Shown: piece after piece, positions 5,392 to 41,039 of the stretch | Layout of the letters: every line of letters starts with the position of its first letter | Numbering within the stretch: position 1 is the first letter of the stretch | Program-made: the position numbers and the translations under genes | Notes under the pieces: generated by a model | The model's input: the letters and a program-made list of their open reading frames with translations, nothing else | The model's database searches: none | Told to the model about the DNA's origin: nothing | UHGV virus genome: UHGV-0106252 | Origin: a virus | Reading direction: 5' to 3' (one strand) | Length of the DNA stretch: 41,044 nucleotides

Positions 5392-5775
5392 TCATCTCGC
5401 CGTCAGTTGTTTTGATTTCCGGTATCCTGCTGCGTAAAGAGCTACATTTGGAAGACATACACCAGTTTCTGGTTGCTTATGTCCAAACTCATTCGCGTAC
5501 ACAATGGCCGCTCTCTCCAGATTGCGTCTGTATTCTTTCTGTTGCCAGATCACGTCCTGTGCCATGAACTTAATTGGCTTAGCGTCTTCTATGCGCTCAG
5601 GCGTTTCGTGAGTACCTTTAGCCTGAATCTGCGCTCTGCTTAGAGTAGGGCGGTGTAATACTTCTGAACTTATTGCTTCTTCGCGGGCCAGTACGCCGTT
5701 AGCTAATGCCTTTGCCTTTAAACGCTCACGACGACGAGAACGTGAATTGCCTTTGAACTGAGTTCTGCGTGTCAT
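5392..5775 (-). CDS. N: N-like transcription antiterminator (P22 gene-24 type)
   Basis: Arg-rich motif near N-terminus (NSRSRRRERLKAKA); C-terminus ...VALYAAGYRKSKQLTAR resembles P22 N. CAGGAGG SD before the ATG at 5775. Confidence 0.7.
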   Translation of the reverse strand: MTRRTQFKGNSRSRRRERLKAKALANGVLAREEAISSEVLHRPTLSRAQIQAKGTHETPERIEDAKPIKFMAQDVIWQQKEYRRNLERAAIVYANEFGHKQPETGVCLPNVALYAAGYRKSKQLTAR

Positions 5776-5903
5776 ATAGACCTCCTGGTGAACTTTGGCG
5801 GTGAATACAGCCGGGCGACTAACTCCGGTAGCGTAATCATTGCAAAGCGCCTCCGCCGAGAAGGTTAGCTTCTGCATTCACCCCAAAGTTCACTTTGGTT
5901 ATT

Positions 5904-6049: not shown

Positions 6050-6200
6050 ATCTGTATGTTTTTTATATGAATTTATTTTTTGCAGGGGTGCATTGTTTGG
6101 TAGGTGAGAGATCTGAACTGCTATGTTTAGTGAGTTGTATCTATTTATTTTCAAATAGATACAATTGGTTATGTGTTCTTGGGTGAGGGGGATCGTGAGG

Positions 6201-6227
6201 CAAAGAAAACCCGGCTCTGTGGCCGGG
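6201..6227 (-). terminator. Rho-independent terminator ending the cI operon
   Basis: Minus-strand hairpin CCCGGCC-ACAGA-GCCGGG followed by TTTTCTTTG. Confidence 0.6.
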
Positions 6228-6235
6228 AATAACAT

Positions 6236-6614
6236 TTAGGAATCAAGGTCAGGTAGCATGATTTTCTCAATCAACGTCAATGCCCTTTGGTCTCGTTCAG
6301 CAAAATATTTAGGAGCGTACTGAGGCAGCCACACTTCGTTGAAGTATTGTTTGAAATCTGCAATATTCGTTTGGGTATAGACGTACCGGGAATGTCCGGC
6401 CATCTGGGTACTCATGGTTATATGTTGGGAATGTCTTCGGCTCAACCCCCCGGTTGTCACGGAGCCATTGCGAGAAAACCCTACCCTCTGAAATATCAGG
6501 GACCATTTTTTCTGGCAGCGTATATCCGGCCTGTTCAAGTGGCGCAACCAAGTTAAACGTCAGTTCATTAAGCATAGAAAAGTGCGTATGAGGAACTCTG
6601 CCTCGGTTTGTCAT
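6236..6614 (-). pseudogene. Unknown gene in rexB position, apparently frameshifted
   Basis: Two overlapping same-strand ORFs (6309-6614 and 6236-6547). Protein-like N-terminus in one frame and protein-like C-terminus in the other; frames meet near 6385-6405. Confidence 0.45.
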
Positions 6615-6653
6615 ATACCGCTTAAGGTGGATAGGGAGTTCGGCAGGCGCTCT

Positions 6654-6995
6654 TTAACCTGACATCCACTCACGCACCCATCTCGATACTTGCACTGCAA
6701 ATTTTGGAGATAGCCACTGAGCTAAATTAATTGCGATGTCTGGATGAACCCAAGTCCCTTGATTCTCTGCTCTTCCGCCTTTAAATGATTGAATTAACTC
6801 CGATATGGGAATCCCCATATCGCGTGATAATTCATCAAAAAAATCTTGTGTTGTTTTTAGTCGTGTATAGTCAGCAAGTAGCTTCCCCGCAGACTTGCAC
6901 ATCGCGGTGGCATTGATGTATCCGTCTTTGGTGCGAAGATGGATGACTTCTCCATCAACTTCTCTAGCGATTAATGCAAGTTGAAATTGTGTCAT
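6654..6995 (-). CDS. KilA-N domain protein (stand-alone) in rexA position
   Basis: 113-aa ORF resembling the KilA-N DNA-binding domain; AGGA SD. Immediately downstream of cI in the same operon. Confidence 0.5.
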   Translation of the reverse strand: MTQFQLALIAREVDGEVIHLRTKDGYINATAMCKSAGKLLADYTRLKTTQDFFDELSRDMGIPISELIQSFKGGRAENQGTWVHPDIAINLAQWLSPKFAVQVSRWVREWMSG

Positions 6996-7026
6996 AAATC
7001 ATCCTATTACGTGAAAAATAAAACAA

Positions 7027-7743
<717 letters not shown>

Positions 7744-7750
7744 TTAAATC

Positions 7751-7816
7751 TATCACCGCAAGGGATAAACTTCTAACACCGTGCGTGTTGACTATTTTAC
7801 CTCTAGCGGTGATAAT
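7751..7816. promoter_or_regulatory. OR3-OR2-OR1 operators with pRM and pR
   Basis: TATCACCGCAAGGGATA, TAACACCGTGCGTGTTG, TACCTCTAGCGGTGATA; pR TTGACT (7788-7793) and GATAAT (7811-7816). Confidence 0.9.
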
Positions 7817-33982: not shown

Positions 33983-34050
33983 AGTTGAAGCCCCAACTGC
34001 GGGAACAGTCAGGGCTTCTGTTGTCAGTAAATTCGTGGAGAAAAACCAAC

Positions 34051-39836: not shown

Positions 39837-40994
39837 TTACAGCACACTTTCATCAAGCCAGTCCGCCCACCACTGCATCATTTCTCTGCGCTTATCGAGA
39901 TACTGAGCATGGTTGTAAATACCGCGCACAGATCCTCCGTTGGCATGTGCCAGTTGCACTTCAATAGCGTCAGCAGGCCATTCGTGCTCGTTCATAATCG
40001 TGCTGAATTCATGCCTGAATCCGTGACCGCTTTCCAGACCTTCATAGCCGATTTGTTTGATCACAAGTAGTACCGCGTTCTCGCAGATTGGCTTCTTCTT
40101 ATCGTTGCGTCCGGCAAAAACAAACTCTGATACTGGTTTAGTGATTGAGCTTAGCGTAGTGAGAAGTTCAACCACCTGGTCTGACATAGGAACAACATGA
40201 ATCTTGCGGCCCTTCATCACACTGGCGTCGATAGTGATAATCCTGTTTTCAAAATCGACGTTCTTCCATTGCATGGAACGAAGCTCTTTTGTTCTGAGGG
40301 CTGTGTAGCGTAAAACTTTGGTCGCAATGAGCGATACGATACTTCCTGAAAATGTTGCCAGTGCTTTGTTGAATGCCGGGATCTGGTCTGCAGGAAGAAA
40401 CGGGAAGTTCTTCTTGCGGTATCCCTTCATGGCGTCAGCAAGGTCAGGTGCCGGGTTATATTTAGCCCTTCCGGTGACAATAGCGTAACGGAAAACCTCG
40501 CCGCATCTTCTGCGTGCTTTGTTGGCTCGCTCCATTGCACCGCGATCTTCAAACCTGCGGATTACTTCCAGCAGTTGCATAGGCTCAATATCCTGAATTT
40601 CAAGGCCGCCGATGATAGGTAAAATGTCGTCATCAAACATTTTTGCAAGTTCAGTTGCATAGCCTACTGACCAGACTTGCTTCTTGTGCTCGTACCATTC
40701 CTTGTAAATCGCACTAAAGGAATTGTTGTTAGACGAAGCCTTTTTCGCTTTTACCGGATCGATGCCAACCGAGATGTCTTTCCTCGCAGTCCATGCTTTA
40801 TCCCTTGCCTCCTGCAAAGTCATAAGCGGATATTTTCCTACGGTCAGGATTTTCTCCTTACCGTCAATCTTGTAGCGAAGCTGCCATACCTTTTTCCCTG
40901 ACACAGGGACATAAAGGTACAGGCCATTACCATCGAGTAGGCGGTATGGTTTTTCTTTCGGCTTTGCTGCTTCAATCTGCTTAACGGTGAGCAT
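39837..40994 (-). CDS. int: Tyrosine integrase (P4/IntS family)
   Basis: N-terminal DUF4102-type arm-binding domain; C-terminal catalytic domain with R...HGFRH...Y. ATG at 40994 gives 385 aa; the ORF track extends to a GTG at 41030. Confidence 0.9.
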   Translation of the reverse strand: MLTVKQIEAAKPKEKPYRLLDGNGLYLYVPVSGKKVWQLRYKIDGKEKILTVGKYPLMTLQEARDKAWTARKDISVGIDPVKAKKASSNNNSFSAIYKEWYEHKKQVWSVGYATELAKMFDDDILPIIGGLEIQDIEPMQLLEVIRRFEDRGAMERANKARRRCGEVFRYAIVTGRAKYNPAPDLADAMKGYRKKNFPFLPADQIPAFNKALATFSGSIVSLIATKVLRYTALRTKELRSMQWKNVDFENRIITIDASVMKGRKIHVVPMSDQVVELLTTLSSITKPVSEFVFAGRNDKKKPICENAVLLVIKQIGYEGLESGHGFRHEFSTIMNEHEWPADAIEVQLAHANGGSVRGIYNHAQYLDKRREMMQWWADWLDESVL

Positions 40995-41039
40995 GGGTAA
41001 AAATCCGGTGGGTAAAATTATTTTATCCACTTTTTACCC
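40995..41039. repeat. GGGTAAAA / TTTTACCC motif array upstream of int (candidate Int arm or RDF binding sites)
   Basis: GGGTAAAA at 40995-41002 and 41010-41017; TTTTACCC at 41032-41039; degenerate TTTTATCC at 41021-41028. Continues at 36-55. Confidence 0.5.

What the first reader, a model, noticed from the sequence alone, without database searches (positions are those of the whole stretch)
6236..6614. Second rex-slot gene is split across two reading frames
The ORF at 6309-6614 has a protein-like N-terminus and a low-complexity Arg/Cys-rich tail. The ORF at 6236-6547 has a poor N-terminus but a protein-like C-terminus. The two frames meet near 6385-6405 in a GC-rich GGCCGG/CCCGG stretch. This fits a single ~125-aa gene carrying a frameshift (mutation, sequencing error or slippage).
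Basis: seen in the sequence. Interest (0 to 1): 0.45.

Follow-up and report, generated by a model that had tools for sequence, protein, structure and literature searches.

The report
Broken bstA phage-defence gene after cI
The two overlapping small ORFs, together with the "first rex-slot gene" upstream of them, are the remains of one 253-codon BstA-type phage-defence gene, broken by a premature stop and a 2-base deletion; it is an ordinary, widely circulating pseudogene.

Summary
The frame split is real, but its size and position were misjudged. Intact relatives carry one 762-nt ORF immediately after the prophage repressor. It encodes 253 aa: an N-terminal KilA-N domain plus a BstA_C domain, a homologue of the BstA abortive-infection protein. 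This ORF spans window 6236-6995 (- strand), so it also includes the 113-aa "first rex-slot gene".

Against the nearest intact allele the window has five changes:
- a synonymous 9G>A (6987);
- GAA>TAA at codon 114 (stop at 6654-6656);
- a 2-bp deletion in AATA[TC]TTG at 6362-6364, which causes the frame split;
- H218Y at a near-invariant His (6346).

The exact haplotype recurs in every one of 12 fetched genome-derived copies and 3 full-length metagenome contigs. The flanks differ but the cI is always lambda-type, so it is an inherited allele, not a sequencing error or recoding. The 113-aa fragment is indexed about as often (1970 blocks) as the intact protein (2229).

Only the KilA-N fragment should be made efficiently, so defence function is most likely lost. 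The same stop codon on other haplotypes is a minor curiosity. Interest is low.

The parts
6236..6995 (-). Whole bstA-type pseudogene (ancestrally one 762-nt, 253-codon ORF: KilA-N + BstA_C)
   Evidence: It aligns end to end with the intact ORFs of E. coli D5 (L001:1166-1927), DY612 and phage PhiR5_2, differing from D5 at 5 positions. The intact protein hits PHROG 6287 'BstA abortive infection system' at E = 1.8e-82 over its full length and PADLOC BstA at 2.5e-20. Precomputed Pfam on the intact protein gives KilA-N + PF26567 BstA_C.
6654..6995 (-).
   Evidence: Pfam KilA-N E = 1.7e-27. PHROG 6287 profile positions 6-121. Identical to residues 1-113 of the intact protein. RefSeq annotates this fragment elsewhere as WP_227164514.1.
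6654..6656 (-). Premature stop codon: GAA(Glu114)>TAA, a G>T change at window 6656 (read on the - strand)
   Evidence: Alignment column 376; 340G>T. It falls in the low-confidence interdomain linker of the AlphaFold model (pLDDT block 111-120 = 66).
6309..6614 (-). Fragment 2: ORF from internal Met128. Residues 128-211 of BstA_C are followed by 17 out-of-frame codons.
   Evidence: PHROG 6287 positions 164-253 at E = 6.6e-30. PADLOC BstA at 4.3e-12. From direct reading of the sequence, there is no good Shine-Dalgarno before the ATG at 6614 (CTTAAGCGGTATATG).
6362..6364 (-). Site of the 2-bp deletion (intact GAA TAT CTT GCA becomes GAA TAT T GCA). This is the actual frame-switch point.
   Evidence: Alignment columns 669-670; deletion of nt 633-634. 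The placement is ambiguous by 1-2 nt within T[CT]T.
6236..6361 (-). Fragment 3: the last 41 codons (Ala213-Ser253) plus the native stop, now in another frame (inside the 6236-6547 ORF)
   Evidence: PHROG 6287 positions 255-301 at E = 5.3e-8. It holds invariant family residues F215, F219, W223, Y231 and F232, and corresponds to the last two helices of the model.
6346..6346 (-). 652C>T: His218>Tyr in the repaired frame, at a residue conserved in at least 90% of 59 homologues
   Evidence: H219 in P0003 numbering equals H218 here.
6987..6987 (-). 9G>A, synonymous (Gln3), part of the haplotype. It lies in the region that corresponds positionally to the BTP1 aba element.
   Evidence: The aba position (-29 to +34 of bstA) is taken from PMC8585504. 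Whether aba lies here in this subfamily is not known.
6210..6227 (-). Rho-independent terminator 9 nt after the native stop codon of the gene
   Evidence: CCCGGCCACAGAGCCGGG + TTTTCTTT. It is conserved in the homologous loci, and the same 36-38 nt is annotated as a terminator in phage HK544.
7027..7740 (-). Lambda-type cI repressor (237 aa), directly upstream and co-directional. A 31-nt spacer with an AGGA ribosome-binding site lies at 6996-7026.
   Evidence: Annotated as cI / LexA family protein in homologous loci. PR-like (7788-7816 +) and PL-like (6015-5987 -) promoters were found.

Best explanation
Window 6236-6995 (- strand) is a decayed copy of a bstA-family gene. BstA is a prophage-encoded abortive-infection protein that sits downstream of the repressor and is co-transcribed with it in lysogens.

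The ancestral product is 253 aa: an N-terminal KilA-N/APSES-type DNA-binding domain, a short linker, and a BstA_C domain.

In this window the gene carries three damaging changes:
1. a nonsense mutation at codon 114, exactly in the interdomain linker;
2. a 2-bp deletion at codons 211-212 that throws the last 41 codons out of frame;
3. His218>Tyr at a near-invariant residue.

Shown: the lesions, the homology, the colinearity of the three fragments, and the fact that the haplotype is inherited and widespread.

Inferred: in lysogens the cI transcript still runs through the locus to the terminator, but ribosomes stop at codon 114. Only the 113-aa KilA-N fragment is then made efficiently. The BstA_C effector part is not made, or is made only as a truncated fragment lacking its last two helices. 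BstA-type defence would therefore be lost. The 2-bp deletion and H218Y are read as secondary decay after the nonsense mutation.
For: Intact single ORF in relatives:
- Intact 762-nt ORFs lie at the same position after cI in E. coli D5, DY612 and phage PhiR5_2.
- The nucleotide alignment shows the TAA and the 2-bp gap. Exact differences are listed.
- More than 2700 homologues were found. Nearly all of the 120 listed are about 250 aa with KilA-N + BstA_C.

Family assignment:
- PHROG 6287 'BstA' at 1.8e-82 over the full length; the three window fragments map colinearly onto it.
- PADLOC BstA at 2.5e-20.
- BLASTP to BTP1 BstA at 5e-15, 29% identity over the C-domain.
- hhalign gives 97.9% probability over 200 columns.
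- The Pfam name BstA_C appears on the intact protein and on C-terminal fragments.

Inherited allele, not an error:
- The identical haplotype occurs in L002, L009 and L014-L023 (NCBI genomes and ENA assemblies) and in 3 full-length metagenome contigs (L039, L040, L044). A fourth, L048, carries it plus one extra substitution.
- The flanking N and replication genes differ between these copies.
- The window itself is not any of the complete E. coli genomes searched (best cover 69%).
- The 113-aa fragment is indexed in 1970 blocks, against 2229 for the intact protein.

Structure (model of an ~86%-identical homologue, mean pLDDT 88.9):
- Two domains with a weak linker at 111-122; helices 210-234 and 238-247 are lost by the frameshift.

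Context and biology:
- Terminator, PL and PR sites.
- BstA biology is taken from PMC8585504.

Decay is common in this gene: other independent truncations and frameshifts occur in the same clusters (144, 175, 176 and 239 aa), plus 439delT in L054.
Against: - No expression or phenotype data exist for this allele or for this 253-aa subfamily. Only the BTP1, Kp52.145 and NCTC10963 BstA proteins were tested, and they share only ~30% identity in the C-domain.
- The broken allele is about as frequent as the intact one, and the N-terminal fragment is unchanged in protein sequence. This could mean the fragment or its DNA is retained for a reason.
- TAA-only alleles with an intact downstream 113/126-aa BstA_C ORF exist (H6, Klebsiella). 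A two-polypeptide form is therefore not excluded for them.
- The order of the lesions is inferred, not shown.
Confidence: 0.9

Rival explanations
1. One reading: one ~125-aa gene (6236-6614), separate from the upstream 113-aa gene, carrying a single frameshift in the GC-rich 6385-6405 stretch.
For: Two same-strand ORFs overlap and their good parts are complementary. An internal ATG at 6614 gives a 126-aa ORF in TAA-only relatives (P0145, P0148, P0149).
Against: Intact relatives have one 253-aa ORF that covers both 'genes'. The 6385-6405 stretch is identical to the intact alleles, and the deletion is at 6362-6364. The three fragments map colinearly onto one BstA profile.
Confidence: 0.03
2. Sequencing or assembly error in this window: the real gene is intact.
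For: Indels are a common assembly artefact. One relative (E. coli strain 81) has an extra 1-bp loss in a G-run and a frameshifted cI, which looks like poor consensus.
Against: The same 5-change haplotype, including a substitution-type nonsense codon and a 2-bp loss in a non-repetitive ATATCTTG context, occurs in 12 fetched genome-derived copies and 3 full-length metagenome contigs from NCBI and ENA, with different flanking genes.
Confidence: 0.02
3. Programmed recoding: stop-codon readthrough and/or ribosomal frameshifting produces full-length BstA from the split gene.
For: None specific. The only support is that the fragments remain colinear and nearly unmutated.
Against: - TAA is followed by A (TAAA), a strong stop context.
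- There is no slippery heptamer at GAATATTGCAG.
- Restoring the frame needs a 2-nt correction.
- Two independent recoding events would be required.
- Intact alleles of the same gene lack both features.
- H218Y hits a near-invariant residue.
Confidence: 0.01
4. The truncation is selected rather than neutral. Either the stand-alone KilA-N protein, or the retained 5' DNA (a putative cognate aba self-immunity element), still does something. One example would be letting the phage replicate in hosts whose resident prophage makes the cognate intact BstA, while the costly abortive-infection effector is discarded.
For: - The stop lies exactly at the domain boundary.
- The same E114* is found on at least two haplotype backgrounds, each 2-5 changes from its own nearest intact allele. 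The flanking markers 339 and 399 differ between them.
- The allele is about as common as the intact one.
- The only change in the N-terminal fragment is synonymous.
- In BTP1, aba is DNA-based, overlaps the 5' end of bstA and works independently of the protein (PMC8585504).
Against: - The Klebsiella E114* allele also carries T81A at an invariant KilA-N residue.
- N-terminal truncations of 69-101 aa also circulate.
- No similarity to the BTP1 aba and no terminal direct repeats were found.
- Recombination between alleles is evidently frequent. It can spread one mutation and inflate its frequency by hitchhiking with the lambda-type immunity region.
Confidence: 0.1

Closest known systems
BstA of Salmonella prophage BTP1 (STMMW_03531; Owen et al. 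2021, PMC8585504)
   Same: - Position immediately downstream of, and co-directional with, the prophage cI-type repressor, followed by a Rho-independent terminator and then the N gene.
- Two-domain plan: KilA-N-type N-domain plus BstA_C.
- C-domain homology by BLASTP (5e-15, 29% identity) and hhalign (97.9% probability over 200 columns).
- Same PHROG (6287) and PADLOC (BstA) models.
   Different: - The ancestral protein here is shorter (253 vs 307 aa).
- Its N-domain is a canonical Pfam KilA-N (8e-27), not detectably similar to the BTP1 N-domain by BLASTP.
- There is no sequence resembling the 63-bp BTP1 aba or its CCCGCC repeats.
- The window copy is broken by a nonsense codon and a 2-bp deletion, so it is not expected to make BstA at all.
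E. coli BstA homologues listed by Owen et al. (e.g. NCTC9022 WP_042043889.1; BstA-Ec of NCTC10963)
   Same: E. coli prophage-associated BstA_C proteins. The NCTC9022 protein aligns to residues 128-231 at 31% identity (2e-9).
   Different: - Those genes are 849-897 nt in the paper's supplementary table, against 762 nt here.
- Only the C-domain aligns.
- The accession numbers of the 253-aa subfamily (WP_000191544 and two relatives) were not found in the paper's supplementary files.
- This subfamily therefore appears experimentally untested.
Intact allele WP_000191544.1 (E. coli D5, ML35, phage PhiR5_2; P0151)
   Same: Same locus, the same lambda-type cI neighbour and the same terminator. It is 757 of 762 nt identical.
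   Different: It is intact (253 aa). The window differs by 9G>A, E114*, deletion of nt 633-634, and H218Y.
RexAB of phage lambda
   Same: It occupies the same slot between cI and PL/N, and it is also an abortive-infection function expressed with the repressor in lysogens (PMC8585504 discussion).
   Different: There is no sequence relationship: Pfam finds only KilA-N in the window ORFs. RexAB is a two-protein membrane-depolarising system, whereas BstA is a single DNA-replication-targeting protein.

Membership tests
BstA abortive-infection family (Owen et al. 2021; PHROG 6287; PADLOC BstA; Pfam PF26567 BstA_C) | C-terminal BstA_C domain | tested here: met
   The window fragments 6312-6614 and 6239-6361 hit PHROG 6287 at profile positions 164-253 and 255-301 (6.6e-30, 5.3e-8). 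The 6312-6614 fragment hits PADLOC BstA at 4.3e-12. The intact allele carries PF26567 BstA_C and matches BTP1 BstA by BLASTP at 5e-15. In the window the domain is present only as two out-of-frame pieces.
BstA abortive-infection family | N-terminal KilA-N (-like) DNA-binding domain | tested here: met
BstA abortive-infection family | Both domains on one polypeptide (about 250-310 aa) | tested here: not met
   The window has a TAA at codon 114 and a 2-bp deletion at codons 211-212. The feature is met in intact relatives. The window copy is therefore filed as a pseudogene of the family, not as a functional member.
BstA abortive-infection family | Located directly downstream of, and co-directional with, a prophage repressor gene, with its own terminator | tested here: met
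   cI lies at 7027-7740 (-), followed by a 31-nt spacer, the gene at 6236-6995 (-) and a terminator at 6227-6210. The arrangement is the same in all fetched loci.
BstA abortive-infection family | Cognate aba self-immunity DNA element overlapping the 5' end of the gene | tested here: inconclusive
   There is no similarity to the 63-bp BTP1 aba, and no terminal direct repeats flank the start codon. aba elements are variant-specific, so sequence alone cannot find or exclude one. About 35 nt upstream of the ATG is conserved along with the gene behind different repressors.
BstA abortive-infection family | Abortive-infection phenotype: blocks replication of exogenous phage DNA | not testable with these tools
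   This needs plaque and replication assays. No paper from 2022 onward in the searched library holds all three terms BstA, KilA-N and defense, and the subfamily's accession numbers are absent from the Owen et al. supplementary files.
Lambda RexA/RexB | Sequence homology to RexA or RexB | tested here: not met
   A Pfam scan of all three window ORFs and of the intact protein at E <= 1 returns KilA-N and no Rex family. Only the genomic slot is shared.
Programmed ribosomal frameshift gene | Slippery site and a frame change conserved among homologues | tested here: not met
   Homologues are single-frame. The site GAATATTGCAG has no slippery heptamer.

The most novel reading that the evidence does not exclude
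The E114* truncation is not neutral decay but a repeatedly selected 'disarming' of BstA at its domain boundary. The prophage sheds the costly or self-endangering BstA_C effector. It keeps either a stand-alone KilA-N protein or the 5' aba-type DNA element, and so can exploit (replicate in spite of) the cognate intact BstA of related prophages. Supporting hints:
- the same stop codon sits on at least two haplotype backgrounds;
- the markers immediately flanking it differ between those backgrounds;
- the broken allele is about as frequent as the intact one.
Probability: 0.1. Interest if true: 0.5.

Novelty: already known. Interest (0 to 1): 0.2.

Why it matters
Mostly for annotation. The locus should be read as one bstA-family pseudogene, not as two or three small hypothetical genes, and the 113-aa 'KilA-N domain-containing protein' in RefSeq is a truncation product. 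A lysogen carrying this prophage should be scored as lacking BstA-type defence.

More broadly, this 253-aa BstA subfamily is inactivated again and again in Enterobacteriaceae: E114*, the 2-bp deletion, and several other truncations and frameshifts. This fits the idea that prophage abortive-infection genes are costly and turn over quickly. If the recurrence of E114* reflects selection, it would give a natural system for asking what the KilA-N domain and the aba element do on their own.

Tried and rejected
- The local Pfam copy finds no family for the C-terminal half. The BstA_C name comes only from precomputed annotations.
- I looked for an aba-like element. Aligning the BTP1 aba region with the equivalent region here shows no similarity. 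A repeat search around the start codon finds only a trivial 7-nt coding repeat and short palindromes (one search was a syntax error).
- A literature search for post-2021 work on BstA and KilA-N returned nothing.
- A scan of species-representative genomes for the TAA allele found none. The scan for either allele found one intact copy, in an Enterobacter MAG.
- I considered phages vB_EcoS-613R10 and 666R9 as a further split case, because two features were listed under the match. The gene there is intact at 257 aa.
- I considered independent recurrence of E114* as proven, and rejected that. Recombinant haplotypes (L031, L033, L035, L053) show frequent exchange. A very short conversion tract, or a recurrent synonymous change at nt 339, could also give the four-gamete pattern.
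- The whole-window search shows that the prophage is not present as such in the complete E. coli genomes.

Full report
**Observation**

On the - strand, directly downstream of a lambda-type cI gene (7027-7740), lie three ORFs:
- 6654-6995 (113 aa);
- 6309-6614 (101 aa);
- 6236-6547 (103 aa), which overlaps the second in another frame.

A terminator-like hairpin follows at 6227-6210. A PL-like promoter (6015-5987) and a 933W-type N gene (5392-5877) come next, so the 'rex slot' placement is correct.

**What the intact form looks like**

A megablast of 6190-6660 against complete E. coli genomes found 22 genomes holding at least 80% of the stretch.
- In most of them the match is 2 bases longer than the query and lies under a single feature annotated 'KilA-N domain-containing protein'.
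- In E. coli D5, DY612 and phage PhiR5_2 that feature is one 762-nt ORF of 253 aa. It starts 31 nt after cI and ends 9 nt before the terminator.

**The lesions**

A seven-sequence alignment and a pairwise comparison with the D5 allele give exactly five differences:
- 9G>A (synonymous, window 6987);
- 340G>T, turning GAA (Glu114) into TAA (window 6654-6656);
- loss of nt 633-634, so that GAA TAT CTT GCA becomes GAA TAT T GCA (window 6362-6364);
- 652C>T, giving His218>Tyr in the repaired frame (window 6346).

After the 2-bp deletion the old frame runs on for 17 junk codons (CRFQTILQRSVAASVRS). The true last 41 codons sit in the frame of the 6236-6547 ORF.

**Identity of the gene**

The intact protein has a Pfam KilA-N domain (8e-27).
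- It matches PHROG 6287, 'BstA abortive infection system, replication inhibitor', over its full length (1.8e-82).
- It matches the PADLOC BstA model with its C-terminal half (2.5e-20).
- The three window fragments hit PHROG 6287 colinearly at profile positions 6-121, 164-253 and 255-301.
- Precomputed Pfam annotation names the C-terminal domain PF26567 BstA_C.
- Against the founding member, BstA of Salmonella prophage BTP1, BLASTP aligns only the C-domain (29% identity, 5e-15).
- A profile of 59 homologues aligns 200 columns with 97.9% probability.
- A BstA homologue listed in the paper's supplement (E. coli NCTC9022) likewise shares only the C-domain (31% identity).

More than 2700 homologues were found, and nearly all of the 120 listed are about 250 aa with both domains.

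According to Owen et al. 2021 (PMC8585504):
- BstA lies downstream of the prophage repressor and is highly expressed in lysogens.
- It localises to replicating exogenous phage DNA and aborts infection.
- It is neutralised for the phage's own replication by aba. In BTP1, aba is a 63-bp DNA element spanning -29 to +34 of bstA.
- The paper also infers two domains with a boundary in the middle of the protein.

**Structure**

An AlphaFold model was built for P0003, a homologue about 86% identical to the intact allele. Its mean pLDDT is 88.9.
- It shows an N-domain (1-113), a low-confidence linker (about 111-122) and a C-domain ending with helices 210-234 and 238-247.
- The premature stop therefore falls exactly in the linker.
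- The 2-bp deletion removes the last two helices. These carry five invariant and several near-invariant residues, including His218, which the window has changed to Tyr.

**Error, recoding or allele?**

The exact 5-change haplotype recurs in many independent copies:
- E. coli EC2641 and 1008S19;
- all ten diverse loci returned for the 113-aa fragment, from NCBI genomes and ENA assemblies;
- three full-length contigs from an independent metagenome scan, plus a fourth (L048) with one extra substitution.

These copies always sit next to a 237-aa lambda-type cI, but their N, recombination and replication genes differ. The window itself is not any of the complete genomes searched (best cover 69%).

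The 113-aa fragment is indexed in 1970 blocks of the collection, against 2229 for the intact 253-aa protein. In the metagenome scan 7 of 19 contigs carried TAA.

This rules out a sequencing error. Recoding is also implausible:
- There is no slippery site at the deletion.
- The stop context is TAAA.
- Two separate recoding events would be needed.

**Most likely working**

This part is inferred. The cI transcript still reads through to the terminator, but translation ends at codon 114, giving a 113-aa KilA-N fragment. The internal ATG at 6614 has no good Shine-Dalgarno, and its ORF would lack the end of BstA_C. BstA-type defence is therefore most likely lost. The 2-bp deletion and H218Y look like secondary decay.

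The same gene is broken in other ways elsewhere:
- products of 144, 175, 176 and 239 aa, and N-terminal stumps of 69-101 aa;
- 439delT in L054;
- an extra 1-bp loss in strain 81.

**Side observation**

E114* also occurs without the 2-bp deletion in two other settings:
- a Rac-like E. coli haplotype (H5/H6);
- a Klebsiella haplotype.

The Klebsiella TAA allele differs from its nearest intact relative (L045) only by E114* and T81A, the latter at an invariant KilA-N residue. The window allele differs from D5 only by the five changes above. The two backgrounds differ at about 20 sites, including nt 339 and 399 on either side of the stop.

Two explanations are possible:
- the G>T change arose more than once;
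- it moved in a conversion tract shorter than 60 bp.

Recombinant alleles (L031, L033, L035, L053) show that exchange is frequent, so this stays open.

Whether the retained 5' end still carries a functional aba-type element could not be decided. There is no similarity to the BTP1 aba and there are no terminal repeats.

**Verdict**

It is an ordinary, widely disseminated bstA pseudogene. Interest is low.

Noticed in passing
window 6654-6656; L004, L030, L032, L034 (E. coli H6-type); L010-L013 (Klebsiella-type); L045, L050 (nearest intact alleles): The same premature stop (Glu114 GAA>TAA) occurs on at least two different bstA haplotypes, each only 2-5 changes from its own nearest intact allele. 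The adjacent marker nt 339 (T vs C) and nt 399 differ between them. This implies either parallel mutation at the domain boundary or a conversion tract shorter than 60 bp. In the H6-type and Klebsiella-type alleles the downstream 113/126-aa BstA_C ORF is still intact.
   Followed up: partly
P0123, P0127, P0129, P0135, P0124, P0126, P0128; L054; L003: Many other independent disruptions of the same 253-aa bstA subfamily circulate in E. coli, Klebsiella, Raoultella and Enterobacter. They include frameshifts near codons 137 and 183, stops at about codons 176-177, N-terminal stumps and 439delT. The gene appears to be inactivated repeatedly.
   Followed up: partly
window 6996-7035 and the equivalent stretch in L001, L004, L005, L010, L029: About 35 nt upstream of the bstA start is conserved behind different repressor genes of 217-253 aa. 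It includes the last codons of the repressor (TTT GGG TGA). The exchangeable module therefore starts inside the 3' end of the repressor gene. This is where a cognate aba-type element would be expected, but none could be recognised.
   Followed up: partly
window 33983-34050 (-): There is a full-length match to Rfam RF00262, sar RNA (91 bits, E = 3e-18). This is the antisense RNA of the P22 immI/ant region, so the prophage has a P22-type second immunity region alongside a lambda-type cI/PL/PR.
   Followed up: no
window 1-41044: From the ORF layout, the window looks like a complete ~41-kb mosaic prophage:
- lambda-type cI/cro;
- a 933W-type N (5392-5877);
- P22-like portal, coat and terminase genes, by the annotation of the best matches;
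- an ORF near 39837-41030 in the position expected for an integrase.
No complete E. coli genome in the collection holds more than 69% of the first 25 kb. No tRNA genes were found.
   Followed up: no
L003 (E. coli strain 81, NZ_CP088131.1): This copy carries the window haplotype plus a 1-bp loss in a G-run (nt 545) and two substitutions. The -1 and -2 losses together restore the frame, and RefSeq annotates a 112-aa 'hypothetical protein'. The neighbouring cI is also annotated as frameshifted, so consensus errors in that assembly are as likely as further decay.
   Followed up: no
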